From Lapillicoccus sp. (lineage in GTDB: Bacteria; Actinomycetota; Actinomycetes; Actinomycetales; Dermatophilaceae), in contig NZ_JBKJPP010000126.1 in assembly GCF_046595215.1 (NCBI RefSeq), forward strand, positions 7,355 to 71,354: a DNA stretch of 64,000 bases, given 5' to 3'. This document shows, piece after piece, positions 127 to 63,637 of this stretch (position 1 is its first letter; every line of letters starts with the position of its first letter). The notes beneath the pieces are model-generated. The model ran no database searches and had not been told where the DNA came from. It saw only the letters and a list, made by a program, of their open reading frames with translations. Both the position numbers and the translations under genes were made by a program.

Positions 127-206
127 GCACCCGGCATACCGGAGTGGCGGCCTGCGCCCCCGAAAGCATGTGACGCGGGGCCCTTCCTTTGGGAGGGTTG
201 GGCCTC

Positions 207-1952
207 GTGGGTCACCTCGACGTCAACACCGTCTCGTTCTCGCTGCCCGACGGGCGGCCACTGCTCAATGACGTGTCGCTGCGGGTCGGTGAGGGGGCGA
301 AGGTTGCGCTCATCGGGCCGAACGGCACCGGCAAGACCACGCTGGCCCGGATCATCGCCGGCGACCTCGCGGCGCACGAGGGGGCCATCACCCGCAGCGG
401 GGGGCTCGCCGTGATGCGCCAGTTCATCGGAAAGGTCCGTGACGACTCGACCGTGCGCGACCTGCTGCTGACGGTGGCCCCCCCGAAGATCCGCGCCGCA
501 TCGGCGGAGATCGAGCGCGCCGAGCTGGCGATGATGGAGCGCGACACCGAGCGGGACCAGCTCGACTACGCCCAGGCACTCGTCGACTGGGGAGACGCCG
601 GCGGCTACGAGGCCGAGACGTTGTGGGACGTGTGCAGCACGAGCGCGCTGGGGGTGGCTTTCGAGCAGGCCCAGTGGCGCAAGGTCACCACCCTCTCCGG
701 TGGGGAGCAGAAGCGGCTATTGCTCGAGGCGCTGCTGCGCGGGACCGAGGAGGTGCTGCTGCTCGACGAGCCCGACAACTACCTGGACGTCCCCGCGAAA
801 CGCTGGCTCGAGGACCAGCTCATCGGCTCGCCAAAGACGGTGCTCTTCGTCAGCCACGACCGCGAGCTGCTCCACCGGGTCGCCACGCGCGTCGCGACGC
901 TCGAGCCCGGCGCGGCCGGGTCGACGCTCTGGGTCCATCCGGGACGCTTCGCGACGTATCAGCAGGCCCGGGTCGAGCGCTTCGCCCGGCTGGAGGAGAT
1001 GCGCAGACGCTGGGACGAGGACCACGCCAAGCTCAAGGCGCTGGTCATCATGTATCGACAGAAGGCGGCCTACAACTCCGACATGGCCACCCGGCTGCAG
1101 GCTGCCGAGACGCGGTTGCGCCGGTTCGTCGAGGTCGGGCCCCCGGAGGCGCTGCCGATGCAGCAGAACGTCACGATGCGGCTGCAGGGGGGCCGCACCG
1201 CCAAGCGGGCGGTGATCTGCGAACGGCTCGAGCTCGGTGTCGGGACCGCGGGGATCCCGTCAGTTGCCGTTGCGGCGGCAGGGAAGCCGGTGGCGCCCGG
1301 GGCGCTGATGAAGCCGTTCGACCTCGAGATCTGGTACGGCGAGCGGGTGGCCGTGCTCGGCTCGAACGGCTCCGGCAAGTCCCACTTCCTGCGGCTGCTC
1401 GCAGCCGGGGGGTCCGACCCCGAGCCCGAGCACCGACCCGTCGGCGACGTCGTCCCCACGACCGTGTCCCACACCGGTCGTGCGCGGCTCGGGTCGCGCG
1501 TCCGGCCGGGGTGGTTCGCCCAGACGCACGAGCACCCGTCGCTGATGGGGCGCACCCTGCTCGAGATCCTCCACCGCGGCGACGAGCACCGGGCGGGCAG
1601 GCCCCGCGAGGAGGCGGCGCGGGCGCTCGATCGCTACGAGCTGGCGCGGGCGTCCGAGCAGACCTTCGAGTTGCTCTCCGGAGGGCAGCAGGCCAGGTTC
1701 CAGATCCTGCTCCTGGAGCTGTCCGGGGCCACTCTGCTGCTGCTCGACGAACCCACCGACAATCTCGACCTCGACTCCGCGGAGGCGCTCGAGGAGGGGC
1801 TCGCGGCGTTCGACGGGACCGTCGTCGCCGTCACCCACGACCGGTGGTTCGCCCGGGGTTTCGACCGCTTCCTCGTCTTCGGCGCCGACGGCCGGGTCTA
1901 CGAGGCTCCCGCACCCGTCTGGGACGAGGGGCGGGTGACCCGTCCTCGCTGA
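207..1952 (+). CDS. ABC-F family ATPase (two NBDs, no TM domain)
   Basis: GPNGTGKT and GSNGSGKS Walker A, LSGGEQ/LSGGQQ signatures, LLLDEP Walker B twice; GTG at 207 follows GGAGG at 192-196. Confidence 0.9.
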   Translation: MGHLDVNTVSFSLPDGRPLLNDVSLRVGEGAKVALIGPNGTGKTTLARIIAGDLAAHEGAITRSGGLAVMRQFIGKVRDDSTVRDLLLTVAPPKIRAASAEIERAELAMMERDTERDQLDYAQALVDWGDAGGYEAETLWDVCSTSALGVAFEQAQWRKVTTLSGGEQKRLLLEALLRGTEEVLLLDEPDNYLDVPAKRWLEDQLIGSPKTVLFVSHDRELLHRVATRVATLEPGAAGSTLWVHPGRFATYQQARVERFARLEEMRRRWDEDHAKLKALVIMYRQKAAYNSDMATRLQAAETRLRRFVEVGPPEALPMQQNVTMRLQGGRTAKRAVICERLELGVGTAGIPSVAVAAAGKPVAPGALMKPFDLEIWYGERVAVLGSNGSGKSHFLRLLAAGGSDPEPEHRPVGDVVPTTVSHTGRARLGSRVRPGWFAQTHEHPSLMGRTLLEILHRGDEHRAGRPREEAARALDRYELARASEQTFELLSGGQQARFQILLLELSGATLLLLDEPTDNLDLDSAEALEEGLAAFDGTVVAVTHDRWFARGFDRFLVFGADGRVYEAPAPVWDEGRVTRPR

Positions 1953-2013
1953 GAGCGTGTTCTCCGTGCAGCCGCGGGGGTGAACAGCGAAACTCACTCA
2001 CAGTCTGCTCTAT

Positions 2014-2027
2014 ATTGTCAGGACATT
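2014..2027. promoter_or_regulatory. Imperfect palindrome ATTGTCAGGACATT, candidate GntR-type operator upstream of the ABC operon
   Basis: TGTC-N2-GACA dyad in an AT-rich patch ~75 bp before the binding-protein start; single instance. Confidence 0.35.
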
Positions 2028-2099
2028 CTTCCCTACGATGGGACCGTCAAGGCGTGTCCGCGAGGAAGCCGGGCCGCACCACCCAAAGGGGAGTCAACG

Positions 2100-3570: not shown

Positions 3571-3578
3571 TCGCCGCA

Positions 3579-4560: not shown

Positions 4561-5378
4561 CGCCGGCAGCGATGGTGCGACGGATCCTCTTCTACGCCCT
4601 GCTCGCGGTCGTCGCGACGTTCTTCGCGCTGCCGCTGCTCTGGTTGGTGCTCGCGCCCTTCGACGCGCACCCGTCGCTCACCGTGAAGCTTCCGCAGTTC
4701 ACGCTCGACAACTTCCGCCAGCTCGGCGAGAACCCCTATGCCCTCTCGTCACTGAAGAACTCGGTCCTCATCTCCGGGGGGGCGATGGTGCTCGTCACCG
4801 CCCTGTCGGCACTGGCGGCATACGCCCTGTCCCGCGTGCGGGTGCCGGGCCGCAACCTGATCCTCTACAGCCTGCTGCTGCTCTCCTCGATCGTCACGGG
4901 GACCGCCGCGATGGTCCCGATCTTCCTGCTGATGTTCCAGCTGGGGTTGATCGACGACCGATCCGGTGTCACGCTCGTCCTCACCGGTGGGCTCCTGCCG
5001 GCGGCGATCTTCATCCTCAAGGACTTCATGGACGCGACGCCGGCGTCCTACGAGGAGAGCGCGCGGGTCTTCGGTGCGAGTCCGCTGCAGGTGCTGCGCC
5101 ACGTGGTGCTGCCGATCGCGAGGCCGGGTCTCGCGACGATCGCGGTCTGGGCGCTCGTCAACGCGTGGGGCGACTTCCTGATGGCCTACATCCTCCTTCG
5201 CGACCCGGAGAAGATGCCTGCCGGTGTGCTGATGTACACCTTCTACAACGAGGGTGGCCAAGCGAATCTCTCGTTGATCTCGGCCTTCTCGCTCGTCTAC
5301 GCGCTACCGGTGGTGGCGCTCTACCTCTTCGTCAACCGCCGCTATGGTTTCCGCTTCCATGGAGGGATCAAGAGCTGA
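4557..5378 (+). CDS. Sugar ABC transporter permease 2
   Basis: YEESARVFGASPLQVLRHVVLP EAA motif; ATGA overlap with upstream permease. Confidence 0.9.
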   Translation: MTPAAMVRRILFYALLAVVATFFALPLLWLVLAPFDAHPSLTVKLPQFTLDNFRQLGENPYALSSLKNSVLISGGAMVLVTALSALAAYALSRVRVPGRNLILYSLLLLSSIVTGTAAMVPIFLLMFQLGLIDDRSGVTLVLTGGLLPAAIFILKDFMDATPASYEESARVFGASPLQVLRHVVLPIARPGLATIAVWALVNAWGDFLMAYILLRDPEKMPAGVLMYTFYNEGGQANLSLISAFSLVYALPVVALYLFVNRRYGFRFHGGIKS

Positions 5379-7694: not shown

Positions 7695-8567
7695 TCACCA
7701 GCGGGGGCGCAGCAGACGGAACCGGACCCGCTCCCCGGGCCGGGACTGGGCGAGGGCGTCGGTGTCCTCGTCGAGCACCACGGCAATGACGGGGTAACCG
7801 CCCGTGGTGGGGTGGTCGGCCGAGAAGACCAGGGGCTGGCCGGACGCGGGCACCTGGACGCCCCCCCTGACGACCCCTTCGCTCGGCAGCTCACCGGGGC
7901 GTCGGCGATCGAGGCTCGGGCCGGCGAGGCGCACGCCCACCCGGTCGCTGTCGGCCGTGACCGTCCATGAGGAGCCGGTGAGGGTCGCCATCGCCCCGGG
8001 CGTGAACCAGTCGTCGCGCGGACCCGCCACGGCCCGCAGCACAAGGGCGCTCACCCGCGGCCCTTCCGGGCCGAGGGCGTCCACGCCGACGGGGACCGTT
8101 CCGGGGGCAGGCCCGACCTCCAACCGGGTTCCCACCTCCAGCGGTGGTGGCCCCAGTCCCGTCGTCGGGTCGCTGCTGGCGCTCCCGAAGAGGCGTTCGA
8201 CGACGAGACCACCGCCGAGGGCGAGGTAGGTGCGCAGGCCGCTGGACGGCATACCGACTGCCAGGCGGTCGCCGGCACCCAGGTCGAAGGGAGCGCAGAG
8301 CGGCGCAGCAGCACCGTTGACGCTCAACGGTGTCGGCGCCCCGGCGACAGAGACCGTGACGGGACCCCCGGCGCGCAGCACCAGCCCCCCGAGCAGGATC
8401 TCGACGGCGGCGGCCCCCTCGTCGTTGCCGACGAGCCGGTTGGCCAGGCGAAGGGCCCGCCGGTCCGCCGCCCCGCTGGTCGTCACACCCAAGGCGGCGT
8501 GGCCGGGCCGGCCGAGGTCCTGGATGGTCGCCAGCGGGCCGACGACCTCGACCACGAGCGACGTCAC
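7695..8567 (-). CDS. pxpC: 5-oxoprolinase subunit C
   Basis: TIQDLGRPG, GAADRRALRLANRLVGN, SDRVGVRL, DHPTTGGYPVIAVV; GTG overlaps pxpB stop. Confidence 0.88.
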   Translation of the reverse strand: MTSLVVEVVGPLATIQDLGRPGHAALGVTTSGAADRRALRLANRLVGNDEGAAAVEILLGGLVLRAGGPVTVSVAGAPTPLSVNGAAAPLCAPFDLGAGDRLAVGMPSSGLRTYLALGGGLVVERLFGSASSDPTTGLGPPPLEVGTRLEVGPAPGTVPVGVDALGPEGPRVSALVLRAVAGPRDDWFTPGAMATLTGSSWTVTADSDRVGVRLAGPSLDRRRPGELPSEGVVRGGVQVPASGQPLVFSADHPTTGGYPVIAVVLDEDTDALAQSRPGERVRFRLLRPRW

Positions 8568-9187
8568 CCTGACACCTCGACGAACTGGATGCGGCGTCCT
8601 GGCAGGAGCAGTGCCGGCGGCTCCCGTGCACCGTCCCACATCACCTCGTCGGTGTGGCCGATGAGCTGCCAGCCCCCGGGGGACGGTCGCGGATAGACCC
8701 CGGTGAACGGGCCGGCCAGTCCGACGGAGCCGGGAGGGATCCGGGTCCTCGGCGAGTCGCGGCGCGGCACGTCGAGGCCGCCGTCGTCGCCGACAAGATA
8801 GCCGAAACCCGGTGCAAATCCAGAGAACTCGACGGTCCAGAGCTGCCCCGTATGCCGGGTGACCACCTCTGCGGGATGGATCCCGAGGTGGCGGGCGACG
8901 TCGGGGAGGTCGGGGCCGTCGTAGCGCACGGCGAGCCGCAGGGACGGGGCGTCGGGCGCGGCGCTCGCGTCGTCGACGTCCCTGAGGTCAAGGGCCCGAA
9001 GCCGGGCCGCGACGCCCTGCAGGTCGTCGGGGGACGCGACCTTCACGAGGACGGTCCGCGCTGCGGGGACGTGGTCGACGACGCCGACCAGGGGAGTCCG
9101 ACGCAGGACGGTGTCGAGGCGGCGGCGTCCGGCAGCGTCGTCGAGCTCGACGAGGATGGCGACGTCGCCACAGGGCAGGAGCCTCAC
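8564..9187 (-). CDS. pxpB: 5-oxoprolinase subunit B
   Basis: [34 protein letters not shown]. Confidence 0.88.
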
Positions 9188-12579: not shown

Positions 12580-13614
12580 ATGACCGATCGCACCCCACAG
12601 ACCTGGCGCACGGCATACGCGCGGCGTTGGGGGCAGACCATCCCGGCGGTGCTCGCGACCTCCTATCCCTATGCGGCGCAACATGTCTCGCAAGGGCCTG
12701 ACGATGTCGACGTCACCCCCGAGCGGCTCCACCCGGCCTTCCACGGGTGTCTCGACTGGCACTCCTCGGCGCACATGCAGTGGTCGGCGATCCGGCTGCT
12801 GACCCTCGCGCCCGACGACCTCGGCGCGGAGGTGCGGGCGGGCCTCGTGGCGGTCCTCGACGAACGGCTGACGCTGGAGAACTGCCGGGTCGAGGCGGAC
12901 TACCTGAGGGCGACCCCCCGCTACGAGCGGCCCTACGGGTGGGGCTGGGCGGCCCTGCTCGCCCTCGCCGCCCGCGACTGCCCGCTGCGTGAGGCGAGCG
13001 GCTGGGCGGTCGCCACCCGGCCGTTGTTCGACGCCGTCGCGGATCTGGTCGTCGACTGGCTGCCCAGGCTCGCCTATCCGGTCAGGCACGGTGAGCACTC
13101 CAACCTCGCCTTCGGGCTGGCCCTCGTGCACGAGGCGGCTCGCGGCCTCGGTCGCGACGACGTGGTCGCCGTCATCGCGGACCACGCCCGGCGCTGGTTC
13201 GGGTCCGACCGCGACTACCCCTCGCGGTGGGAGCCCAGCGGCAGCGACTTCCTCTCGCCCGCGCTCTGCGAGGCTGACCTCATGCGCCGCGTCCTGCCAG
13301 CCGGGGAGTATGCCGGGTGGCTGTCCGGTTTCCTTCCCCACCTCGCTGCCGAGGGGGACCCGCTGCTCGAGGTGCCGCAGGTCCTCGACCGCACCGATGG
13401 CAAGGCGGTGCACCTCTTCGGACTGGCGCTGTCGCGTGCCTGGCAGCTCCGGGGCCTGACGCCGTTCATGGGCGAGGCGGCCGCGGCGAGAGTTGCCGAA
13501 GCCTCGCGACGCCAGGTCGAGGAGGTCGAGCGAGAGATCATCGAGGGGGACTTCATGTCGACCCACTGGCTGGTCTCGTTCGCGCTCCTGGCCGTCACGG
13601 CCGAAGAGCGCTGA
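12580..13614 (+). CDS. DUF2891-like protein of unknown function
   Basis: HPAFHGCLDWHSSAH, ERPYGWGW, GEHSNLAF, EPSGSDFLSPAL, HLFGLALSRAW, HWLVSFA. Confidence 0.7.
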   Translation: MTDRTPQTWRTAYARRWGQTIPAVLATSYPYAAQHVSQGPDDVDVTPERLHPAFHGCLDWHSSAHMQWSAIRLLTLAPDDLGAEVRAGLVAVLDERLTLENCRVEADYLRATPRYERPYGWGWAALLALAARDCPLREASGWAVATRPLFDAVADLVVDWLPRLAYPVRHGEHSNLAFGLALVHEAARGLGRDDVVAVIADHARRWFGSDRDYPSRWEPSGSDFLSPALCEADLMRRVLPAGEYAGWLSGFLPHLAAEGDPLLEVPQVLDRTDGKAVHLFGLALSRAWQLRGLTPFMGEAAAARVAEASRRQVEEVEREIIEGDFMSTHWLVSFALLAVTAEER

Positions 13615-15724: not shown

Positions 15725-15840
15725 GACTAACTGTTGTGCCACCCCGACGGCTCCCTTCCGGAGCACACGGTGGCCCGCTCAGGCGGGGCCCACGGCATAC
15801 GACCTCCACGAGTTCCACCGAGAACGAAAGCTGGACCACT

Positions 15841-18510: not shown

Positions 18511-18577
18511 GTGGAGCCGTGGCGGCGCGGCATACGATGTCAGGCGTCCGACGCTCCTGCCCCCGAGAGGCCAGTGC

Positions 18578-28523: not shown

Positions 28524-28580
28524 GGCTCGAGTATGCCGTCCCATCCCGACAGTGGCCCCGGCGTCGGCCCGGCGTCGGCG

Positions 28581-37223: not shown

Positions 37224-37236
37224 GTTGGAGGTTGGT

Positions 37237-44136: not shown

Positions 44137-44743
44137 CACGAGGCGGCGGAGCCCGCTCGGGCACCGGGCCGCCGAGCTGGCCGCGAACCCGACCGGCGTG
44201 GGACTGCGTGAGGTGCCGTTCCTCACCCAGCTCGACCTGCGCGTTGACCCGGTCGGGCCCGCCGCCGGCGCCGTGGCGCAGCTCCTCGGGGCTCCCCTCC
44301 CGACGGAGCCGAACACCGCCGTCCGCTCGGGCGAGCTGACGACGATGTGGCTGGGACCGGACGAGTTCCTCGTGGTCGCCCCCGCCGATCCCACGGATGT
44401 GCGCGCCACGGGCTTCGCGACAGCTCTCGGGACCGACCTGCTCCACGCGGTCGAGGGCGAGAACGGCGCCGTCGTGGACGTCTCGGCGCACCGGACCACC
44501 ATCGAGCTGTCCGGGGACCGGGTCCTCGACGTCCTCGCCAAGGGCTGCTCGCTGGACCTGCACCCGAGCGTCTTCACCGTCGGTCGGTGCGAGCAGGTCC
44601 TCCTGGGCCTGGCCCCGGTGCTGCTGCTCGCCCGCGGTGGCGAGCGCCCGGCATACCTCCTGCTCGTGCGGTCCTCGTTCGCGACCTACGTCGCCGACTG
44701 GCTGCTCGACGCGAGCCTGGAGTATGCCGGGAGCGACGACTGA
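44126..44743 (+). CDS. soxG: Sarcosine oxidase gamma subunit
   Basis: LREVPFLTQLDLR, WLGPDEFLV, LAKGCSLDLHP, VRSSFATYVADWL. Confidence 0.92.
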   Translation: MTADTRRRSPLGHRAAELAANPTGVGLREVPFLTQLDLRVDPVGPAAGAVAQLLGAPLPTEPNTAVRSGELTTMWLGPDEFLVVAPADPTDVRATGFATALGTDLLHAVEGENGAVVDVSAHRTTIELSGDRVLDVLAKGCSLDLHPSVFTVGRCEQVLLGLAPVLLLARGGERPAYLLLVRSSFATYVADWLLDASLEYAGSDD

Positions 44744-50492: not shown

Positions 50493-51686
50493 ATGGACCT
50501 CCTCATCGGGCTCGGCGGACTGGCTCTCGGCGTCATGCTGGCCACGCTCATCCTGCACTCGCGGTATGCCGTGCCGCTCGCCACCGCGACGGCGGAGCGC
50601 GACTTCCTGCGCGAGCGCGTCGTCGACCTCGAGGCCACGGTGAGTGCCGACTCGGAGACGGCCCAGATGATCGCGCCGCTGCGCTCGAGCCTCGAGCGGG
50701 TCGAGAGGCAGGTCCACGACCTCGAGCGGGAGCGGGTGGCCCAGTTCTCGACGGTGGCCGCCGAGCTGACCCGGGTGCGGTCCTCGACTGCCGAGCTGCG
50801 CTCCCAGACCGCGTCCCTGGTGGGGTCGCTCAACGCGTCCACGGTGCGGGGATCATGGGGTGAGGTGCAGCTGAGCCGGGTGCTCGAGCACTCGGGGATG
50901 CTCTCGCGGTGCGACTTTGACGAGCAGGTGAGCGCGACGACCGCCGACGGGGGCACCGTGCGGCCCGACGTCGTGGTCCACCTCCCCGGTGGCAAGGACC
51001 TCGTCATCGACGCCAAGGTCCCGATGACCGCCTTCCTCCGCGCGCAGGCGGACGGGCTGACCACCCAGGAGCGCGGCGACCAGCTGGTGGCCCATGCCAA
51101 AGCCCTGCGGTCGCACGTCGACGCCCTGGCGGCCAAGGCCTACTGGAGCGCGCTGCCGCTGACCCCCGAGATGGTGGTCTGCTTCGTTCCGGGCGACGCG
51201 ATCCTCACCGCGGCCCTGGCCCACGACCCAGACCTGCACGAGCACGCGATGCGCCGGCGCGTCGTCCTCGCCTCGCCGGCCACGCTCCTGGCGCTGCTCC
51301 GCACGGTCGCGTTCACCTGGCAGCAGGAGGCGCTCGCGAGCAACGCCCGCGAGCTGCTCGAGGTGGGCCGCGAGCTCTACGAACGCCTCAGCGGGCTCGG
51401 GCAGCATGCCAGCCGGATGGGGTCAGCGCTGCAGCGCTCGGTCGAGGCCTACAATGGCTTCATCGGCTCCCTCGAAGCCCGGGTGCTGGTCACCGCCCGC
51501 CGGATGCACGAGCTCGGGGTCGTCGAGCGCCCGCTCGAGCCGCTCCACCCCGTGACGACGCCCAGCAGGCCCCTGACCGCGGTGGAGCTGCTCGAGGCCC
51601 TGGAGCCCGAGGTGGCGCGCCCTGAGCTCGATCTGGAGTCAACAGCCGACGAGCCGGCCACCCTGCGAGCCGAGCGTCAGGCCTGA
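50493..51686 (+). CDS. rmuC: DNA recombination protein RmuC
   Basis: N-terminal TM, coiled coil, RGSWGEVQL, RPDVVVHLP, IDAKVP, FVPGDA, SPATLLALLR. Confidence 0.9.
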   Translation: MDLLIGLGGLALGVMLATLILHSRYAVPLATATAERDFLRERVVDLEATVSADSETAQMIAPLRSSLERVERQVHDLERERVAQFSTVAAELTRVRSSTAELRSQTASLVGSLNASTVRGSWGEVQLSRVLEHSGMLSRCDFDEQVSATTADGGTVRPDVVVHLPGGKDLVIDAKVPMTAFLRAQADGLTTQERGDQLVAHAKALRSHVDALAAKAYWSALPLTPEMVVCFVPGDAILTAALAHDPDLHEHAMRRRVVLASPATLLALLRTVAFTWQQEALASNARELLEVGRELYERLSGLGQHASRMGSALQRSVEAYNGFIGSLEARVLVTARRMHELGVVERPLEPLHPVTTPSRPLTAVELLEALEPEVARPELDLESTADEPATLRAERQA

Positions 51687-53984: not shown

Positions 53985-54075
53985 CCCGGTGGCGGCCCGG
54001 CAGCGGTCCCCCGGCAGCCCGGCATACCCCGTCGTGGTCGGCCACTGCGGTGATCGCAACTAGGATCTTGGACCC

Positions 54076-55161
54076 GTGGCCCTCAGCATCGGAATCGTCG
54101 GACTGCCCAACGTCGGCAAGTCCACCCTCTTCAACGCCCTGACCAAGAACAATGTCCTCGCGGCGAACTATCCGTTCGCGACGATCGAGCCCAACATCGG
54201 GGTCGTCGCGCTGCCGGACAGCCGGCTCGCGACGCTCTCCGAGATCTTCGCCAGCGAGAAGATCCTCCCGGCGACGGTGTCATTCGTCGACATCGCGGGG
54301 ATCGTCCGCGGCGCGTCGGTGGGGGAGGGGCTCGGCAACAAGTTCCTCGCCACGATCCGCGAGGCCGACGCGATCTGCCAGGTGATCCGGGCCTTCGAGG
54401 ACGACGACGTCGTGCACGTCGATGGCAAGGTCTCGCCGGAGAGCGACATCGAGACGATCAACACCGAGCTGTGCCTGGCTGATCTGCAGACCCTCGAAAG
54501 GGCGATCCCAAGGCTGGAGAAGGACGCTCGCGTCCAGAAGGACAAGAAGGCCGCCCTCGACAATGCCCTGGCCGCGCAGCAGGTCCTCGAGGCCGGCGAC
54601 ACCCTGTATGCCGCGGGCGCGGCGGCAGGTGTCGATCTGGACCAGGCGCGCGGGCTGGGCCTGCTGACGACCAAGCCCTTCATCTACGTCTTCAACCTCG
54701 ACGAGGACCAGCTGACCGACGCGGCCCTCAAGACCCGGTTGACCGAGCTCGTGGCCCCCGCCGACTGTGTCTTCCTGGACGCCAAGCTCGAGATGGACCT
54801 CGCCGAGCTCGACGCCGACGAGGCGCTCGAGCTGCTCCAGTCGGTCGGCGCGGAGGAGTCGGGGATGGACCAGCTGGCCCGGGTCGGGTTCCACACCCTG
54901 GGGCTGCAGACCTACCTCACCGCCGGGCCCAAGGAGACGCGCGCCTGGACGATCGGCAAGGGGTGGACCGCGCCGATGGCGGCGGGTGTCATCCACACCG
55001 ACTTCCAGCGCGGCTTCATCAAGGCCGAGGTCGTCTCGTTCGACGACCTGGTCGCAGCCGGGTCGATGAGCGCGGCGAAGGCGGCCGGCAGGGTGCGCAT
55101 CGAGGGCAAGGACTATGTGATGTCCGACGGCGACGTGGTCGAATTCCGCTTCAACGTGTGA
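54076..55161 (+). CDS. ychF: Obg-family ATPase YchF
   Basis: GIVGLPNVGKSTLFNALT, NYPFATIEPN, VDIAGIV, GLGNKFL, IHTDFQRGFIKAE, DGDVVEFRFNV. Confidence 0.97.
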   Translation: MALSIGIVGLPNVGKSTLFNALTKNNVLAANYPFATIEPNIGVVALPDSRLATLSEIFASEKILPATVSFVDIAGIVRGASVGEGLGNKFLATIREADAICQVIRAFEDDDVVHVDGKVSPESDIETINTELCLADLQTLERAIPRLEKDARVQKDKKAALDNALAAQQVLEAGDTLYAAGAAAGVDLDQARGLGLLTTKPFIYVFNLDEDQLTDAALKTRLTELVAPADCVFLDAKLEMDLAELDADEALELLQSVGAEESGMDQLARVGFHTLGLQTYLTAGPKETRAWTIGKGWTAPMAAGVIHTDFQRGFIKAEVVSFDDLVAAGSMSAAKAAGRVRIEGKDYVMSDGDVVEFRFNV

Positions 55162-55661: not shown

Positions 55662-56672
55662 ATGCCGCCGCCCACCCGCCGCACCACGGTCATCACCGCC
55701 CTGGTGGCCGTGGTCGTGATCGGTCTTCCCATGGGCAGCTGGGCGACCACCCGGATCCACCAAGAGCCGGCTCCCTCTCGCACCAGCGCCTCCTCGCCGC
55801 CACCGCCCACGGCCCCATTGCCTACGGCCCCATCACCCTCAGCCTCCGGGGCGGCCCTCGCGGCGCTGGCCCTACTCGAGGTCAAGGGCCGGGCGCCCCG
55901 GACCGGATACACCCGTGACGCCTTCGGGCAGGCCTGGCTCGACGTCGATCGCAACGGCTGCGACACCCGCAACGACGTCCTGCGGCGTGACCTCGTCGAC
56001 CTCATCCTCAAGGCAGGCACCAACGGGTGCCTCGTCCTCCGCGGGACGCTCCATGACCCCTACACCGGCGCCACCATCGCGTTCCTGCGCGGCCCGACGA
56101 GCTCGACGGCCGTCCAGATCGACCACGTGGTCGCGCTCGCCGACGCCTGGCAGAAGGGCGCTCAGCAGTGGACGCCCCAACAGCGCGCCGCCTTCGCCAA
56201 CGACCCTCTCAACCTCCTCGCCGTCGACGGCCCGGCCAACCTGCGCAAGGGCGACGGTGACGCGGCGACCTGGCTGCCGCCCGCCACGGCATACCGGTGC
56301 TCGTATGCCGCACGGCAGGTGGCCGTGAAGGCCACTCACCGGCTGTGGGTCACTGCGCCCGAGCGCGACGCTTTGGCGCGCCTGCTCGGCAGCTGCCCGG
56401 GGGAGCCGCTGCCGACCGCAGGGGCGTTCGTCCTCGGCGGTGGCTCCGAGGCGGCGGTCGACCCGCCGGCAGCGTCGGGTCCGACGACGACCTCGGCGCC
56501 GCCATCGAGCGCTCCAGTGCCCCTGATGCCCAAGCCGGCCAGTGGCGACGACCCCCGGTTCGCCACCTGCAGGGCCGCGAAGGCAGGGGGTTTCGGTCCG
56601 TATCGGCAGGGCAGCGACCCGGAGTACGGCTGGTACCGGGACGCCGACCGCGACGGCATCGTGTGCGAGTAG
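55662..56672 (+). CDS. Exported HNH-type (DUF1524-like) nuclease with C-terminal Excalibur Ca-binding domain
   Basis: N-terminal TM; NGCDTRNDVL, QIDHVVAL, FANDPLNLLAV; FATCRAAKAGG..YGWYRDADRDGIVCE. Confidence 0.82.
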   Translation: MPPPTRRTTVITALVAVVVIGLPMGSWATTRIHQEPAPSRTSASSPPPPTAPLPTAPSPSASGAALAALALLEVKGRAPRTGYTRDAFGQAWLDVDRNGCDTRNDVLRRDLVDLILKAGTNGCLVLRGTLHDPYTGATIAFLRGPTSSTAVQIDHVVALADAWQKGAQQWTPQQRAAFANDPLNLLAVDGPANLRKGDGDAATWLPPATAYRCSYAARQVAVKATHRLWVTAPERDALARLLGSCPGEPLPTAGAFVLGGGSEAAVDPPAASGPTTTSAPPSSAPVPLMPKPASGDDPRFATCRAAKAGGFGPYRQGSDPEYGWYRDADRDGIVCE

Positions 56673-56761: not shown

Positions 56762-57820
56762 ATGAGCGGTTCCGACTTCAGCTGCAGCATGGTCAGCACG
56801 CCCCGTCTGGCCATGAACGTCTGGACATCCGGCCCCGACGACGGGCGGCCCGTCCTGCTCGTCCACGGCAACCTGGTCACCGGTGGCTTCTGGAGGTACG
56901 TTGCCGAGCTGCTCCCCGACGACGTCCGCGTCATTGCTCCGGACCTGCGGGGCTTCGGCCGCACCGAGGCCAAGCCGATCGACTCGACCAGAGGTCTCGG
57001 CGACATGGTCGACGACGTGCACGGGCTCCTCCAGGTCCTCGGCCTCACGAGGCGCGAGGACCTCGTCGCCTCGGGATGGTCGATGGGCGGCGGAGTCCTC
57101 GAGCAGTACGTCCTGGACCACCCGGGAGACCTCGCGAGCATCGTCCTCGTCGCGCCGCTGTCGCCGTACGGCTTCGGCGGGACGAAAGGTCCTGACGGCG
57201 AGGCGTGTTCGGACGACTTCGCCGGGACCGGCGGGGGAGGCGCGGCGCCGGCGTTCGTCCAGCGACTCCGCGACAAGGACACGTCGGCCGACGACCCGAG
57301 CAGCAGCCCGCGCGTCATCCTCCGGACCTTCTTCGGGGCCGGCGCCAACGTGGCGAACGTCGACGAGGACTTCCTCGTCGACGAGTTCCTGCGGACCGTC
57401 GTCGGCGACGACTTCTACCCCGGCACGACGACGAGCTCGGCGAACTGGCCGAGCATCGCCCCGGGCGACCGTGGAGTTCTCAATGCCATGTCTCCCAAGC
57501 ATTTCGATGCCTCGGGCATCGTCGACGTCGATGACAAACCAGCGATCACCTGGCTCCGTGCGGGCAAGGACCAGGTGATCTCCGACACGTCGATGTTCGA
57601 CTTCGGCACCCTCGGCAGGCTCGGCGCCGTGCCCGGCTGGCCGGGCGACGACGTCCTGCCGCCGCAACCGATGAACGTCCAGATCCGCGCGGTGCTCGAC
57701 CGGTATGCCGCGAACGGAGGAACAGTGTGCGAGGTCGGCCTCGAGGACATCGCCCACGGCATCCCGCTCGAGGCTCCGCAGGCTGTTGCCGACGCGATCG
57801 TGGCGCAGCTGGGTCGCTGA
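56762..57820 (+). CDS. Alpha/beta hydrolase
   Basis: [21 protein letters not shown] nucleophile elbow, terminal His in IAHG. Confidence 0.85.
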
Positions 57821-57893: not shown

Positions 57894-58958
57894 GTGTCTC
57901 AGGAGCCCGTCACCCCCCCAACCCTCGTCGGCCGCTCGTTCGTGCGGGAGCTCGACTTCACCCCACAGGAGTGGCGCCACCTCGTCGACCTCACGCGCGA
58001 GCTCAAGACGGCCCGGCGTGAGCGGCGCGAGGAGCAGCACCTCGTGGGGCGCACCATCGCGCTGATCTTCGAGAAGACCTCGACGCGCACCCGCTGCGCG
58101 TTCGAGGTGGCCGCCTATGACCAGGGTGCCCATGTCACCTACCTCGAGCCGACCGGCAGCCAGATCGGGCACAAGGAGTCGATCAAGGACACGGCGCGGG
58201 TGCTCGGCCGGTTCTATGACGGGATCGAGTACCGCGGTGACGCGCACTCCACCGTCGAGACCCTGGCGCAGTATGCCGGGGTGCCGGTCTTCAACGGCCT
58301 CACCGACGACTGGCACCCGACCCAGGCCCTCTGCGACGCCGTGACGATGCTCGAGCACTCGCCGAAGCCGGCCGCGGAGATCTCCTACGCCTACGTCGGC
58401 GACGCGCGCTTCAACATGGGCAACTCACTGCTCGCGCTCGGCGCACTGATGGGGATGGACGTGCGCATCGTGGCACCCCGGCCACTCTGGCCGCGCGAGG
58501 ACGTGGTCGCCGCCGCACAGGAGGTGGCGGCCGTCACAGGTGCGCGGCTCACGGTCACCGACGACCTCGCGAGCGGGGTGGCGGGCGTCGACTTCGTGCA
58601 CACCGACGTGTGGGTCTCGATGGGCGAGCCCAAGGAGGTCTGGGCGGCGCGGATCGCGCAGCTGCTGCCCTATCAGGTCAACGCCGCTCTCCTCGCCCTG
58701 ACCGGGAACCCCGATGTGAAGTTCATGCACTGCCTCCCGGCCTACCACGACCTCGGGACCCAGATCGGGCGCGACGTGCACGCGGCACACGGTCTGGCGG
58801 CCCTCGAGGTCACCGACGAGGTCTTCGAGTCGGCCGCGTCGATCGTCTTCGACCAGGCCGAGAACCGGATGCACACCATCAAGGCCGTGCTCGTGGCGAC
58901 CCTGGCGGGCTCGGGCTCCGGCTCTGGGCCGGGGGAGACGCGGCGCGCCGACGACTGA
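57894..58958 (+). CDS. argF: Ornithine carbamoyltransferase
   Basis: [42 protein letters not shown]; start may be ATG 57885. Confidence 0.93.
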
Positions 58959-61008: not shown

Positions 61009-61112
61009 GTTCCAATTCTCACCCGGCCCGGCCAACCTGTCATCCAAGGAAAGGCTTACCAAAGGGCAACCGAAGTGGGGGCCCGCCACCCGGCGTCTGG
61101 GAGGCTCGGGCC

Positions 61113-61541
61113 ATGCCCGATGCCCATCCGACCCTCGTCGTCGGGGTCGCGCTCGTCGACGACCTGGGCCGCCCGACCCGCCTGCTCGGCGCGCGTCGGA
61201 CCGCACCGGCGGAGCTGGCCGGCGGGTGGGAGCTGCCCGGTGGCAAGGTGGACCCCGGTGAGGAGACCCTCGACGCGCTCCACCGCGAGGCCCGGGAAGA
61301 GCTCGGGGTCGGCATCGAGGTCGGCGTCCACCTGGTGGGTCCGCACGCCGACGGCACCTGGCCGCTCGGCACCGACTACCGGATGCACGTCTGGCTCGCC
61401 GCGGTCAGCGACGGCGTCCCCCAGCCGCTGGAGGACCACGACGAGCTGCGCTGGCTCACCGCGGGAGACCTGTATGCCGTGCCCTGGCTCCCGGCGGACC
61501 TCCCCATCGTCCGGGCCGTGGGGGACCGGCTCGCCGACTGA
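61113..61541 (+). CDS. Nudix (MutT-like) hydrolase
   Basis: WELPGGKVDPGEETLDALHREAREELG Nudix box, HDELRW, WLPADLP. Confidence 0.9.
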   Translation: MPDAHPTLVVGVALVDDLGRPTRLLGARRTAPAELAGGWELPGGKVDPGEETLDALHREAREELGVGIEVGVHLVGPHADGTWPLGTDYRMHVWLAAVSDGVPQPLEDHDELRWLTAGDLYAVPWLPADLPIVRAVGDRLAD

Positions 61542-61625
61542 CCCCCAAGGTGACCCGGACACGAGGCCGGACGCCCGCACGCCCCCGGGGGATGGTCAGC
61601 GGCTGCCGGAAATCCTGAGAGAATC

Positions 61626-63542
61626 GTGACCATGCCTGTCAAGACCCGCGACGACATCCGGAATGTCGCCATCATCGCCCACGTCGACCACGGAAAGACG
61701 ACCCTGGTCGACAAGATGCTCTGGCAGTCAGGTGCCTTCGGGGAGCACCAGCACGTCGACGAGCGGGCGATGGACTCCGGTGACCTCGAGCGCGAGAAGG
61801 GCATCACCATCCTCGCGAAGAACACTGCCGTGCACTACACCGGCAAGGCGGCCCTCGACATGGGCCTGGCCGACGGCGTGACGATCAACATCATCGACAC
61901 CCCCGGCCACGCTGACTTCGGGGGCGAGGTCGAGCGCGGCCTGTCCATGGTCGACGGCGTCGTCCTGCTCGTCGACGCGTCCGAGGGGCCTCTCCCCCAG
62001 ACCCGCTTCGTCCTGCGCAAGGCGCTCGCCGCCAAGATGCCCGTCATCCTCTGCATCAACAAGGTGGACCGTCCCGACTCGCGCATCGCCGAGGTCGTCG
62101 ACGAGGCCTATGAGCTCTTCCTCGACCTCGACGCGACCGCGGAGCAGATCGACTTCCCCATCGTCTACGCCTCGGCACGGGCCGGCCGGGCCTCGCTCGA
62201 GCGGCCCGAGAACGGCGTCATGCCCGAGGGCGAGGACCTCGAGACCCTCTTCGCGACGATCCTGGGCACCATCCCGGCGCCGTCCTACGACGAGGACGCC
62301 CCGCTGCAGGCCCACGTGACGAACCTCGACTCGTCGAACTTCCTTGGTCGCCTCGCGCTCCTGCGCGTCCGCAACGGCACGATCTCCAAGGGCCAGCAGG
62401 TCATGTGGTGCCGCCACGACGGCTCGCAGCAGCGGGTCAAGATCACCGAGCTGCTGATGACCGAGGCCCTCGAGCGCAAGCCGGCCGACAGTGCGGGCCC
62501 CGGCGACATCATCGCCGTCGCAGGCATCCCCGAGATCACCATCGGTGAGACCCTCGCCGACGCCGAGAACCCCATTCCGCTCCCGTTGATCACCGTCGAC
62601 GAGCCGGCCATCTCGATGACCTTCGGCACGAACAGCAGCCCCATGGTCGGCCGGGTGCGCGGCTCGAAGGTGACCGCCCGCATGGTCAAGGACCGCCTCG
62701 ACAAGGAGCTGGTCGGCAACGTCTCGCTGCGCATCCTGCCCACCGAGCGCCCCGACACCTGGGAGGTGCAGGGCCGCGGTGAGCTGGCCCTGGCGATCCT
62801 CGTCGAGCAGATGCGCCGGGAGGGCTACGAGCTGACGGTCGGCAAGCCCCAGGTGGTCACCCGCGAGGTCGACGGCAAGATCCATGAGCCTGTCGAGCGG
62901 CTGACCATCGACACCCCCGAGGAGTTCCTCGGCGCGATCACCCAGATCCTCGCCGCCCGCAAGGGCCGGATGGAGCAGATGACCAACCACGGCACTGGCT
63001 GGATCCGGATGGAGTTCCTCGTGCCCTCGCGCGGCCTCATCGGCTTCCGCACCGAGTTCCTCACCGAGACCCGCGGTACCGGCATCGCCCACCACGTCTT
63101 CGAGGGCTACGAGCCGTGGTACGGCGCCATCACGACCCGGACCAGCGGCTCCCTCGTGTCCGACCGCACCGGGGTGGTCACCGCCTACGCGATGGTCAAC
63201 CTCCAGGAGCGCGGCGCGCTCTTCACCGAGCCGACGACGGAGGTCTACGAGGGCATGATCGTCGGCGAGAACTCGCGCGCCGACGACATGGACGTCAACA
63301 TCACCAAGGAGAAGAAGCTCACCAACGTGCGGGCCTCGTCCTCCGACAACTTCGAGAAGATCGTGCCGCCGCGCAAGCTGAGCCTCGAGCAGTCGCTCGA
63401 GTTCTGCCGCGAGGACGAGTGCGTCGAGGTCACTCCCGACGCCGTCCGGATCCGCAAGGTCGTCCTCGACGGGAGCGACCGGGCTCGGACCGCATCCCGT
63501 GCCCGGTCGGCCGTGAAGTCCGAGGCCGCCGCCAGCTCCTGA
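61626..63542 (+). CDS. typA: Translational GTPase TypA/BipA
   Basis: [58 protein letters not shown]. Confidence 0.97.
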
Positions 63543-63637
63543 CGCGAGACGTCCACGGCGGCGGGCTCCCGGCATACTGGCTCCCGGCACAGTGCGGTCT
63601 CGCCGCCGCGGAGACGACCCGAAGGAGCCCAGGTGTG

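What the first reader, a model, noticed from the sequence alone, without database searches (positions are those of the whole stretch)
132..63577. Octamer CGGCATAC/GTATGCCG iterated about every 2 kb across the window
Hand count gives 33 exact copies. Plus strand (15): 132, 4816, 8247, 12611, 15793, 18528, 24663, 27410, 32499, 36977, 38759, 44649, 54020, 56287, 63570. Minus strand (18): 8850, 13308, 18625, 24940, 28531, 30934, 30970, 34139, 37235, 44722, 46434, 48781, 50564, 54606, 56303, 57703, 58271, 61472. A single-base model at ~71% GC expects about 2. Copies lie in genes and intergenic DNA, in housekeeping and accessory genes, and in different frames (GCA-TAC, TAT-GCC, ATG-CCG, CGG-CAT), several using codons that look uncommon here. 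The motif is non-palindromic and not strand-polarised, unlike KOPS or Chi within one replichore. It recalls HIP1 or DNA-uptake sequences, or the target of a methyltransferase or nucleoid protein. I cannot name a described system for it; function is inference.
Basis: partly seen in the sequence, partly recalled or inferred. Interest (0 to 1): 0.85.

Follow-up and report, generated by a model that had tools for sequence, protein, structure and literature searches.

The report
Strand-alternating hyperabundant octamer in actinobacteria
The eight-letter DNA word CGGCATAC is written about every 2 kb into this actinobacterium's genes, against its own codon preferences, and into more than half the genera of its family. 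Copies pointing the same way avoid each other over about 1.5 kb, which suggests an undescribed genome-wide 'self' signal read one strand or one direction at a time.

Summary
All 33 copies sit at the stated coordinates, against 0.8 expected. The whole genome (3.94 Mb) holds 2033 copies, 994 on one strand and 1039 on the other.

Under four codon-aware shuffles, CGGCATAC is the single most over-represented octamer of all 65,536, at 5-24 fold. Where the protein allows it, rare codons are chosen to spell the word: TAT-GCC 709 against TAC-GCC 100, and GCA-TAC 504 against GCC-TAC 189.

The word is enriched in 117 of 201 sampled family genomes (Dermatophilaceae/Intrasporangiaceae), in 36 of 67 genera, at up to 1.5 copies per kb. 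It is absent from the other families of the order and from genomic islands.

The new finding is that neighbouring copies alternate in orientation: 69% overall and 82-86% below 500 bp. Same-orientation copies exclude each other out to about 1.5 kb, while opposite-orientation copies do not. No other frequent octamer behaves this way. The exclusion recurs across the family.

I tested and rejected these explanations:
- a codon artefact;
- replichore polarity of the KOPS or Chi type;
- RecBCD;
- PilT pili;
- three DNA methyltransferase families;
- REP or MITE elements.

ComEA/ComEC, Tad pilus genes and an AdnAB-like nuclease are present but do not discriminate. The best reading is a signal linked to recombination or DNA uptake and read in an orientation-specific way. 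The reader protein is unknown. I found no published description.

The parts
132..139 (+). copy, intergenic (between my gene calls ending at 123 and starting at 189)
4816..4823 (+). copy, outside my gene calls (lies inside the long ORF 4358-6424 +)
8247..8254 (+). copy in gene 7698-8639(-), read GGT-ATG-CCG (G-M-P)
8850..8857 (-). copy, outside my gene calls
12611..12618 (+). copy in gene 12580-13611(+), read ACG-GCA-TAC (T-A-Y; rare GCA)
13308..13315 (-). copy in gene 12580-13611(+), read GAG-TAT-GCC-G (E-Y-A; rare TAT)
15793..15800 (+). copy in gene 15736-16281(+), read CGG-CAT-ACG (R-H-T)
18528..18535 (+). copy, intergenic after glmM; 97 bp from the inverted copy at 18625
18625..18632 (-). 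copy in the glycosidase gene 18578-19921(+), read GTG-TAT-GCC-G
24663..24670 (+). copy in gene 24313-25233(-), read CTG-TAT-GCC-G
24940..24947 (-). copy in gene 24313-25233(-), read GCG-GCA-TAC
27410..27417 (+). copy in xseA 27258-28544(-), read GGG-TAT-GCC-G
28531..28538 (-). copy in xseA, read CGG-CAT-ACT (R-H-T)
30934..30941 (-). copy in my gene call 30709-31281(-), read ACG-GCA-TAC
30970..30977 (-). copy, read GCG-GCA-TAC. It lies 36 bp from 30934 in the same orientation, one of only two same-orientation pairs under 1 kb in the window.
32499..32506 (+). copy in gene 31499-32965(+), read GCG-GCA-TAC
34139..34146 (-). copy in gene 34053-36035(+), read GGG-TAT-GCC-G
36977..36984 (+). copy in gene 36139-37125(+), read CCG-GCA-TAC
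37235..37242 (-). copy in gene 37189-39672(+), read GGT-ATG-CCG
38759..38766 (+). copy in gene 37189-39672(+), read GCG-GCA-TAC
44649..44656 (+). copy in gene 44126-44740(+), read CCG-GCA-TAC; 73 bp from the inverted copy at 44722
44722..44729 (-). copy in gene 44126-44740(+), read GAG-TAT-GCC-G
46434..46441 (-). copy in gene 44760-46505(-), read ACG-GCA-TAC
48781..48788 (-). copy in gene 48719-50170(-), read CCC-GGC-ATA-CCT (rare ATA)
50564..50571 (-). copy in rmuC 50409-51683(+), read CGG-TAT-GCC-G
54020..54027 (+). copy, intergenic upstream of ychF
54606..54613 (-). copy in ychF 54076-55158(+), read CTG-TAT-GCC-G. The same word sits at the orthologous place in locus L005.
56287..56294 (+). 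copy in gene 55473-56669(+), read ACG-GCA-TAC; first arm of an inverted pair with an 8-nt spacer
56303..56310 (-). copy, read TCG-TAT-GCC-G; second arm of the inverted pair, which lies inside a gene and is not a terminator
57703..57710 (-). copy overlapping the ATG start (57705) of gene 57705-58955(+): GT-ATG-CCG
58271..58278 (-). copy in gene 57705-58955(+), read CAG-TAT-GCC-G; conserved in L005 and L006
61472..61479 (-). copy in gene 61002-61538(+), read CTG-TAT-GCC-G. It is conserved at the orthologous place in L004, L006, L008, L010, L015 (Knoellia) and L039.
63570..63577 (+). copy, intergenic after typA

Best explanation
C-[A/C/G]-CGGCATAC is a family-specific signal at the DNA level, spread across the genome. 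It is not a by-product of coding. It is maintained by a sequence-specific process that operates over kilobase-scale tracts and reads the word in only one orientation or on one strand.

The mechanism I think most likely is a molecular drive linked to DNA exchange, of the kind proposed for DNA uptake sequences. DNA from relatives enters the cell; a Tad-type pilus, ComEA and ComEC are encoded here. It is then handled as single strands or by a directional motor. A strand or fragment carrying one correctly oriented copy is preferentially taken up, preserved or recombined, so alleles that spell the word replace those that do not.

One copy per strand fragment of about 1-3 kb is enough. A second same-orientation copy nearby therefore gains nothing and decays towards preferred codons. 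Copies on the other strand serve the other strand and are unaffected.

Shown:
- abundance of the word;
- recruitment of synonymous sites;
- same-orientation exclusion;
- the family distribution;
- absence from islands;
- decay of the word in a lineage that lost it.

Inferred:
- that DNA exchange or recombination is the process involved;
- that the word is recognised on a single strand;
For: 1. Abundance. The genome holds 2033 copies, and CGGCATAC is the top octamer under four codon-aware nulls.

2. Synonymous-site recruitment. In the G|Y-A|G context, TAT-GCC occurs 709 times against TAC-GCC 100, although TAT is only 14% of Tyr codons genome-wide. After nCG, GCA-TAC occurs 504 times against GCC-TAC 189, although GCA is 6.5% of Ala codons. 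The dipeptides themselves are barely enriched (YA 1.13, AY 1.04). Of 3959 synonymously permissive sites, 40% are occupied.

3. Orientation-specific interference.
- Of 1839 neighbouring pairs, 69% are opposite in orientation (p 5e-61), rising to 82-86% below 500 bp.
- Same-orientation pairs occur at 0.14-0.3 of expectation below 500 bp and return to about 1 beyond 1.5 kb. Opposite pairs occur at 1.0-1.8 of expectation.
- Occupancy of permissive sites rises from 14-17% to 52-57% with distance from the nearest same-orientation copy. It does not rise with distance from opposite-orientation copies.
- Same-orientation gaps have a mean of 3.2 kb and CV 0.74, and are depleted both below 1 kb and above 8 kb.
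- Among 256 octamers with at least 1200 copies, only this one alternates: 81% opposite against 31-54% for the rest.
- The effect recurs in another genus (G134, 67% opposite, p 6e-11).
- Direct pairs within 400 nt occur at 0.17-0.87 of the Poisson expectation, median 0.40, in 33 family genomes. I calculated these by hand.

4. No replichore polarity. Chi-square is 31.7 on 76 df across contigs. Summed over 117 genomes, the strand totals are 120,732 against 120,796.

5. Absence from islands. The word is missing from islands carrying transposases and accessory catabolic genes, and from a motif-free second dnaK-clpB locus.

6. Lineage dynamics. Of 67 genera, 36 are rich. One species in this very genus has 19 copies. 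At 49 orthologous sites that species has 0 copies, and the commonest words there are the preferred-codon forms GTACGCCG and CGGCGTAC. Between two rich genera, 10 sites are shared against 24 and 25 private ones.

7. Machinery. ComEC is present in 80 of 80 genomes, and comEA-comEC lie at C145:21362-24888. Tad T2SSF genes are present. Transformation that depends on Flp/Tad pili is known in Micrococcus luteus, of the same phylum (PMC4322843).
Against: - No reader was identified.
- ComEC and the Tad genes are equally present in motif-poor genomes, so the machinery does not track the motif.
- PilT-type pili are absent from the family.
- Uptake in Haemophilus and Neisseria does not depend on orientation (PMC1939737). 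The orientation-specific spacing seen here is therefore not a known property of uptake sequences, and my model needs an extra assumption that recognition is strand-specific.
- I know of no report of natural transformation in this family.
- A directional-tract version of the model predicts a difference between convergent and divergent opposite pairs. None is seen in this genome.
- GTAC and CGTACG are depleted in step with the motif. My model does not explain this.
Confidence: 0.35

Rival explanations
1. The word is a Chi-like regulatory sequence for the AdnAB-type helicase-nuclease. The enzyme, moving in from a DNA end, recognises the word on one strand in one direction only and switches from degradation to RecA loading. 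Two-ended breaks and incoming linear DNA need one orientation on each side, so each orientation is spaced independently. DNA that carries the word survives and recombines better, which drives its spread.
For: - Orientation-specific, kb-scale interference with independent behaviour of the two orientations is what a directional reader predicts.
- The word is enriched in the core genome and absent from islands.
- It has the length of a Chi site (8 nt) and a per-orientation density of about 1 per 3-4 kb.
- Two adjacent long ORFs, each with a C-terminal PD-(D/E)XK nuclease domain, resemble AdnA and AdnB (C36).
Against: - There is no replication-related orientation bias, which every characterised Chi shows (established knowledge for E. 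coli, B. subtilis and L. lactis).
- RecC is absent from this genome and unrelated to the motif across the family: present in 31 of 117 rich genomes against 28 of 62 poor ones.
- No Chi is known for AdnAB, which has been called a putative Chi-independent machine (PMC5314763).
- AdnAB is expected to be near-universal in Actinobacteria. Loss of the motif in about 25 genera would therefore need changes of specificity, yet I found no replacement word in two motif-poor genomes.
Confidence: 0.2
2. The word is the product of a context-specific mutation or repair bias, analogous to very-short-patch repair, and has no function of its own. An enzyme would convert near-cognate words, above all the codon-preferred GTACGCCG/CGGCGTAC, into GTATGCCG/CGGCATAC. 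The same activity might deplete GTAC.
For: - The motif is one transition away from GTACGCCG, a naturally common word in high-GC relatives: 85-860 per Mb in G038, G015, Kribbella and Nocardioides, against 54 per Mb here.
- That neighbour is depleted to 0.43 of the codon-aware expectation.
- GTAC and CGTACG stand at 0.44 and 0.26 of the codon-aware expectation here.
- Across 80 family genomes the GTAC/CATG ratio falls with motif density: median 0.42 in rich genomes against 1.09 in poor ones, rho -0.60, p 3e-9.
Against: - A local patch process cannot explain why occupancy depends on a same-orientation copy up to 1.5 kb away but not on an opposite-orientation copy.
- GTAT and ATAC outside the motif are not raised.
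- GCA-TAC sites (504) far outnumber any plausible pool of GCG-TAC precursors, since GCC-TAC is the normal form.
- No C5 or N4/N6 methyltransferase of three main families is present to seed such repair.
- Several non-transition neighbours are depleted too.
Confidence: 0.1
3. The word is a strand mark for a chromosomal transaction other than gene transfer. One example would be a strand-specific nicking or loading site used for repair or strand discrimination. Another would be a binding site of an abundant chromosome-organising protein. Selection would keep one copy per strand within reach of every position.
For: - Each orientation is quasi-regularly spaced, with a deficit of both short and very long gaps.
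- The two strands are in perfect balance.
- The word occurs throughout core genes regardless of transcription direction: 868 against 718 on the coding strand.
Against: - Selection on any single site would be extremely weak. Yet sites override codon preference at 40-57% of permissive positions.
- About 25 genera, and one species of this genus, live without the word.
- Islands and a second dnaK-clpB locus function without it.
- A duplex-binding organiser would not distinguish orientations.
Confidence: 0.1
4. The enrichment is a by-product of amino-acid, codon or dipeptide usage, or the word is part of a longer mobile repeat.
For: Two reading frames dominate, x-Y-A and x-A-Y. Related GC-rich words containing TAC are common in relatives for codon reasons.
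Against: - CGGCATAC is the top octamer under all four codon-aware nulls.
- It uses rare codons.
- Its density is the same in uncalled and intergenic DNA, which hold 20% of copies in 18% of the genome.
- The flanks carry information only at positions -2 and -1.
- There are no clusters of more than 3 copies in 400 bp.
- It is absent from sister families with the same GC content and codon usage.
Confidence: 0.01

Closest known systems
DNA uptake sequences: DUS of Neisseriaceae (GCCGTCTGAA and dialects, read by the minor pilin ComP) and USS of Pasteurellaceae (AAGTGCGGT core)
   Same: - A short asymmetric word at about 1 per 1-2 kb, in equal numbers on both strands and with no replichore polarity.
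- It is written into genes in a few favoured frames at little cost to proteins, and is also intergenic.
- It is rarer in recently acquired DNA.
- It is specific to a lineage, with differences in the flanks between genera.
- Its spacing is more even than random.
- Some copies form close inverted pairs.
(PMC1939737.)
   Different: - It occurs in a Gram-positive phylum with no PilT-type pilus.
- The competence genes ComEC and Tad do not co-vary with the word.
- Uptake of USS and DUS is orientation-independent. Here same-orientation copies exclude each other over about 1.5 kb while opposite ones do not.
- No uptake bias has been shown.
- The heptamer ATGCCGT shared with the 12-mer DUS is probably coincidence, because the invariant CTG core of DUS is absent.
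Chi sites of RecBCD and AddAB
   Same: It is an 8-nt asymmetric word that is the most over-represented octamer under codon-aware models and is enriched in the core genome. A Chi site is read by a directional machine from one side only, which would explain orientation-specific interference.
   Different: There is no orientation bias relative to replication. RecC is absent from this genome and uncorrelated with the motif. No Chi is known for AdnAB. The density and fold-enrichment are higher than for E. coli Chi.
HIP1 (GCGATCGC) of cyanobacteria
   Same: It is an octamer conserved across a large clade, with strongly varying density among lineages and a quasi-periodic distribution. HIP1 has recently been linked by phylogenetic correlation to competence and pilus genes and proposed as an uptake signal (bioRxiv 10.64898/2026.06.24.733823).
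   Different: HIP1 is a palindrome and is methylated by DmtA and DmtC. This word is asymmetric, and this genome has no member of the PF00145, PF01555 or PF02384 methyltransferase families.
KOPS/SRS (FtsK/SpoIIIE guide octamers) and the TRS/clt repeats of Streptomyces TraB
   Same: These are 8-nt asymmetric words read by a directional DNA translocase.
   Different: KOPS and SRS are strongly polarised towards dif. This word is not. No clt-like cluster of copies exists.

Membership tests
DNA uptake sequence (DUS/USS) | Hyper-abundant short word on both strands in equal numbers, in genes and spacers | tested here: met
   The genome holds 2033 copies (994/1039). CGGCATAC is the top octamer under codon-aware nulls. 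Uncalled DNA holds 20% of copies in 18% of the genome.
DNA uptake sequence (DUS/USS) | Competence machinery is encoded (DNA channel, DNA receptor, pilus) | tested here: met
   ComEC is present in 80 of 80 genomes. comEA-comEC lie at C145:21362-24888. Tad T2SSF genes are present, with 5 hits in this genome. PilT is absent. The machinery is also present in motif-poor genomes, so it does not discriminate.
DNA uptake sequence (DUS/USS) | Cells take up DNA carrying the word preferentially; a receptor binds it | not testable with these tools
   This needs uptake or transformation assays and binding studies.
DNA uptake sequence (DUS/USS) | The word acts irrespective of its orientation in the fragment | tested here: not met
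   Same-orientation copies exclude each other (0.14-0.3 of expectation below 500 bp). Opposite-orientation copies do not. Orientation independence of USS is reported in PMC1939737.
DNA uptake sequence (DUS/USS) | Rarer in recently acquired DNA | tested here: met
   The longest motif-free stretches are islands with transposases and accessory genes. Density falls in windows of low GC.
Chi site | A cognate RecBCD or AddAB-type helicase-nuclease is present | tested here: inconclusive
   RecC is absent from G000 and G016 and unrelated to the motif. An AdnAB-like pair is present on C36. No Chi is known for AdnAB.
Chi site | Orientation bias co-directional with replication | tested here: not met
   Per-contig plus/minus counts are under-dispersed (chi-square 31.7, 76 df). 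They show no correlation with GC skew or gene strand. Family strand totals are 120,732 against 120,796.
HIP1-type iterated palindrome | Palindromic word | tested here: not met
   CGGCATAC and GTATGCCG are distinct words.
HIP1-type iterated palindrome | A cognate DNA methyltransferase is conserved with the word | tested here: not met
   PF01555, PF00145 and PF02384 give no hit at E<=1e-10 in G000 or G016. Elsewhere they are sporadic, with no link to the motif. Other methyltransferase families and methylation itself were not tested.
KOPS/SRS | Strong polarity switching at ori and dif | tested here: not met
REP/MITE/BIME repeats | A longer conserved unit with a hairpin, mostly extragenic | tested here: not met
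   The flanks carry information only at positions -2 (C, 74%) and -1 (not T). About 80% of copies lie in genes. There are no clusters.

The most novel reading that the evidence does not exclude
The word belongs to a so far undescribed kind of genome-wide system in Actinobacteria: a distributed, strand-specific signal where one copy per strand per tract is enough. It would be read by a machine that handles single strands or moves directionally, such as a sequence-specific step of ssDNA import or integration, a distributed initiation and termination site for single-strand transfer, or a Chi-like switch for AdnAB. It is gained and lost as a unit among genera, and its loss is followed by rapid erosion of thousands of sites. 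The co-varying depletion of GTAC and CGTACG would be part of the same self/non-self logic.
Probability: 0.3. Interest if true: 0.92.

Novelty: new variant of a known kind. Interest (0 to 1): 0.85.

Why it matters
Genome-saturating signal words (DUS, USS, HIP1, Chi) have been windows onto how bacteria recognise their own DNA during gene exchange and repair. In the searches I ran I found none described for Actinobacteria or for any Gram-positive phylum.

This word shapes thousands of synonymous sites in more than half the genera of a family that includes the main phosphate-removing bacteria of wastewater plants. It therefore biases codon usage, phylogenetic signal and metagenome binning.

If the word does govern uptake or recombination, adding it to constructs could make these hard-to-engineer bacteria transformable.

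Tried and rejected
1. Codon or dipeptide artefact: rejected by four codon-aware shuffles and by rare-codon use.

2. Replichore polarity of the KOPS or Chi type: rejected.

3. RecBCD as reader: RecC is absent here and uncorrelated with the motif.

4. PilT-type type IV pili: absent from the family.

5. ComEC and Tad as discriminating factors: both are present almost everywhere, so they are uninformative.

6. Methyltransferases PF01555, PF00145 and PF02384: absent from two motif-rich genomes and sporadic elsewhere. A regex screen for methyltransferase motifs found only an RsmD-like rRNA enzyme, though that screen is weak.

7. A longer repeat or a clt-like cluster: none found.

8. 'Dialects' in motif-poor genomes. 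G015 and G038 have no comparable octamer. The abundant GTAC-containing words of G015, Kribbella and Nocardioides do not alternate in orientation, so I read them as codon background.

9. Close inverted pairs as terminators: the pair in the window lies inside a gene and no terminator was predicted there.

10. Orthologous conservation around typA: only a small sample, because synteny is poor.

Full report
**Observation**

Dinucleotide-preserving shuffles give 0.80 copies on average and at most 3. The window is C104:7355-71354 of a 3.94-Mb draft of 219 contigs at 70.7% G+C.

Genome-wide there are 2033 copies, 994 on one strand and 1039 on the other, or one per 1.94 kb. Each of the 24 one-mismatch variants is far rarer, at 8-694 copies. 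The flanks add information at only two positions: C at -2 (74%) and not-T at -1. This holds both in called genes and in uncalled DNA. The real word is therefore C-[A/C/G]-CGGCATAC.

**Is it more than coding bias?**

I called genes from third-position G+C, which gave 3081 genes covering 82% of the genome. I then ran four nulls, with 30 shuffles each:
- synonymous codons shuffled within each gene;
- the same while keeping the following base, within a gene;
- the same while keeping the following base, genome-wide;
- codon order shuffled within each gene.

In every case CGGCATAC is the most over-represented of all 65,536 octamers. There are 1588 copies in called genes, against 67-294 expected (z 75-186). 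The runners-up are only its own shifted overlaps.

Two frames dominate: nnG-TAT-GCC-G (709 copies) and nCG-GCA-TAC (503). The other four frames hold 58-138 each. Uncalled DNA holds 20% of copies in 18% of the genome.

Codon choice is bent to spell the word:
- In the G|Tyr-Ala|G context, TAT-GCC occurs 709 times and TAC-GCC 100 times, although TAT is only 14% of Tyr codons.
- After nCG, GCA-TAC occurs 504 times against GCC-TAC 189 and GCG-TAC 39, although GCA is 6.5% of Ala codons.

The dipeptides YA and AY are hardly enriched, at 1.13 and 1.04. Of 3959 positions where synonymous changes alone could spell the word, 1586 (40%) do so.

**A new property: orientation-specific exclusion**

Per-contig plus/minus counts are more balanced than a binomial expectation (chi-square 31.7 on 76 df). 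They are unrelated to GC skew or gene strand, so there is no replichore polarity.

The cause of this balance is that neighbouring copies alternate in orientation. Of 1839 adjacent pairs, 69% are opposite (p 5e-61). The fraction depends on distance:

| Distance between neighbours | Opposite orientation |
|---|---|
| below 500 bp | 82-86% |
| 0.5-1 kb | 76% |
| 1-2 kb | 64% |
| beyond 2 kb | about 57% |

Head-to-head and tail-to-tail pairs are equally frequent in every bin.

Pair correlations show that this is a repulsion between copies of the same orientation. Same-orientation pairs occur at these fractions of expectation:

| Distance | Same-orientation pairs, observed/expected |
|---|---|
| below 500 bp | 0.14-0.3 (0.7 in the 30-60 bp bin) |
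| 0.5-1 kb | about 0.5 |
| 1-1.5 kb | 0.7 |
| beyond 1.5 kb | about 1.07 |

Opposite-orientation pairs stay at 1.0-1.8, against a long-range baseline of about 1.1-1.2. The exception is an excess of 2.7-2.9 fold below 30 bp, from hairpin-type pairs.

Occupancy of permissive sites tells the same story. It is 14-17% when another same-orientation copy lies within 500 bp, and 52-57% when the nearest is 1.5-5 kb away. Opposite-orientation neighbours show no such effect.

Same-orientation gaps have a mean of 3.17 kb and a CV of 0.74. They show a deficit both below 1 kb and above 8 kb.

As a control, I examined the 256 non-palindromic octamers with at least 1200 copies. Only this word alternates: 81% of neighbours within 1 kb are opposite, against 31-54% for all the others.

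The effect is reproduced in 400 kb of a complete genome from another genus (G134). There, 390 copies show 67% opposite neighbours (p 6e-11), with a shorter exclusion range at the higher density.

A pattern search for direct pairs within 400 nt covered 45 motif-rich genomes of 35 genera. Combined with the copy numbers, the observed/Poisson ratios I worked out by hand for 33 of them range from 0.17 to 0.87, with a median of 0.40 and none above 1.

In the window itself, 20 of 32 adjacent pairs are opposite. Of the ten pairs closer than 1 kb, eight are opposite.

**Distribution**

The TypA protein encoded in the window is 94% identical to that of Intrasporangium sp. and 92% identical to Terrabacter. 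The organism therefore belongs to the Dermatophilaceae in the GTDB sense, which includes the Intrasporangiaceae.

Within its genus, copy numbers range from 19 to 3728 per genome. Twelve other families of the order show no enrichment.

Among 201 family genomes, 117 are rich (at least 100 per Mb, up to 1506 per Mb), 22 are intermediate and 62 are poor. Of 67 genera, 36 are rich. Summed over the rich genomes, the two strands hold 120,732 and 120,796 copies.

Named loci show the word in Tetrasphaera/Nostocoides, Knoellia, Flexivirga, Serinicoccus, Terrabacter and Lapillicoccus. It is not enriched in Janibacter, Phycicoccus endophyticus, Marihabitans, Agilicoccus, Dermatophilus, Nocardioides or Kribbella.

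The flank differs between genera. G134 prefers CG-CGGCATAC, while this genome prefers CA-CGGCATAC.

**Gain, loss and islands**

The longest motif-free stretches are of three kinds:
- an island carrying transposase fragments and aromatic-catabolism genes (C2);
- an island carrying a mutator-type transposase (C131), and a 19-kb contig of lower G+C carrying microcompartment and amine-catabolism genes (C24);
- a second dnaK-grpE-dnaJ-hspR-clpB locus (C29:1-20,901), which has 26 permissive sites and none occupied. The other dnaK/clpB locus, on C132, carries copies at the normal density.

Motif density rises with local G+C.

I compared orthologous sites between genomes. Against the motif-poor species of the same genus (G015), none of 49 sites of this genome is kept. 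The commonest orthologous words there are the preferred-codon forms GTACGCCG and CGGCGTAC. Against the rich genome of another genus (G134), 10 sites are shared, with 24 and 25 private to each genome.

Several window sites (54606, 58271, 61472) are conserved at the orthologous place in relatives that are about 80% identical in DNA.

The word is thus actively maintained where the system exists, turns over, and erodes to preferred codons where it has been lost. Two motif-poor genomes show no replacement word. The abundant GTAC-containing words of G015, Kribbella and Nocardioides do not alternate, so I read them as codon background and not as dialects.

| Candidate | Result |
|---|---|
| RecC (PF04257) | absent from this genome and from G016; present in 31 of 117 rich and 28 of 62 poor genomes |
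| PilT (TIGR01420) | absent from the family apart from two probable strays |
| ComEC (PF03772) | intact in 80 of 80 genomes; comEA-comEC at C145:21362-24888 |
| Tad-type T2SSF genes | present in 79 of 80 genomes, 5 hits here |
| DNA methyltransferases PF01555, PF00145, PF02384 | no hit in G000 or G016; sporadic elsewhere, unrelated to the motif |
| PD-(D/E)XK nuclease domain (PF12705) | two adjacent long ORFs on C36, an AdnAB-like pair |

The machinery for Micrococcus-type transformation (Flp/Tad pilus with ComEA and ComEC; PMC4322843) and for end resection is therefore present. Nothing I tested tracks the motif.

**Interpretation**

The long-range, orientation-specific interference is the key constraint, and it does three things:
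- It excludes purely local causes such as a codon effect or a short-patch mutation or repair bias.
- It argues against an orientation-blind duplex-binding protein.
- It points to a reader that sees one strand or travels in one direction, and for which one copy per tract of about 1-3 kb is enough.

The enrichment reaches near saturation of free synonymous sites. The word is absent from acquired DNA. Whole lineages have lost it and their sites have eroded. Together these fit a drive tied to exchange of homologous DNA, as modelled for uptake sequences, better than they fit selection on each site.

I therefore favour a signal linked to DNA uptake or recombination and recognised in a strand-specific way (confidence about 0.35). 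A Chi-like switch for AdnAB is the main rival (about 0.2). It shares the directional logic, but it lacks the replication-linked skew of all known Chi sites. It also has no precedent for AdnAB (PMC5314763).

In known uptake systems the word works in either orientation (PMC1939737). The exclusion found here is therefore a real difference from DUS and USS, not a shared trait.

**An unexplained correlate**

GTAC stands at 0.44 and CGTACG at 0.26 of the codon-aware expectation in this genome. Across 80 family genomes, the SSGTACSS/SSCATGSS ratio has a median of 0.42 in rich genomes and 1.09 in poor ones (rho -0.60, p 3e-9; not corrected for phylogeny). Within the genus it is 0.32-0.36 in rich genomes against 2.57 in the poor one.

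The motif is one transition from GTACGCCG. However, the GTAC deficit of about 4200 sites in called genes exceeds the number of motif copies. At G015's GTAC sites, this genome mostly has CTAC.

**Literature and earlier notes**

Full-text searches for the word, for the family names together with the word, and for uptake sequences or over-represented octamers in Actinobacteria found no description.

Earlier AI notes of this scan report the same word in at least eight other genomes of the family. Two of them mention alternation. I had found the alternation before reading those notes, and I measured it independently.

**Limits**

- The genome is a draft.
- My gene calls are crude, at 82% coverage.
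- The family-wide exclusion ratios were calculated by hand from tool counts.
- Inverted pairs could not be counted family-wide.
- The correlations are not phylogenetically corrected.

Noticed in passing
whole genome G000; 80 family genomes: GTAC and CGTACG are strongly depleted, at 0.44 and 0.26 of the codon-aware expectation. The depletion tracks motif density across the family: the SSGTACSS/SSCATGSS median is 0.42 in rich genomes against 1.09 in poor ones, and 0.32 against 2.57 within the genus. No methyltransferase of three main families is present in this genome.
   Followed up: partly
genome contig C29:1-20901 (outside the window): A second dnaK-grpE-dnaJ-hspR-clpB heat-shock locus has typical GC3 (0.94) and 26 permissive sites, but no motif copy. 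The other dnaK/clpB locus, on C132 (60-66% identical proteins), carries copies at normal density. The C29 locus is either a recent import from a motif-free lineage or an assembly chimera; estimated contamination is 3.2%.
   Followed up: partly
genome contig C24 (19,152 bp, whole contig): This contig of lower G+C (66.4%) carries copper amine oxidase, microcompartment-shell-like and aldehyde dehydrogenase genes. It has 19 permissive sites and no motif copy, so it is likely acquired DNA or a stray contig.
   Followed up: no
window 18633-24662: This is the longest motif-free gap in the window (6 kb). It coincides with genes 20711-24207, which have low first-position G+C (0.56-0.57), and with the local G+C dip to 0.649. 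It looks like acquired transporter genes.
   Followed up: no
window 57703-57710: A copy overlaps the predicted ATG start of gene 57705-58955 (GT-ATG-CCG). The word is therefore tolerated even at a translation start.
   Followed up: no
genome contig C145:26686-28170: A group II intron-type reverse transcriptase ORF lies about 1.8 kb from the comEA-comEC operon.
   Followed up: no
G042:C3:609947-609982 and G090:C45:6330-6469 (relatives): The word also occurs inside short tandem arrays. One has heptamer units (CGGCATA-CGGCATA-C...). The other is a 24-nt repeat containing the word. These are exceptions to the same-orientation exclusion.
   Followed up: no
motif with flank, GTATGCCGTG: The word shares the heptamer ATGCCGT with the 12-mer Neisseria DUS (ATGCCGTCTGAA). 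This is probably coincidence, since the invariant CTG core of DUS is absent.
   Followed up: no
G134 (another genus), 400 kb: Very close inverted pairs are asymmetric there. GTATGCCG...CGGCATAC occurs 28 times against 8 for the reverse order within 60 bp. In this genome the two orders are equal (21 against 23 within 30 bp).
   Followed up: no
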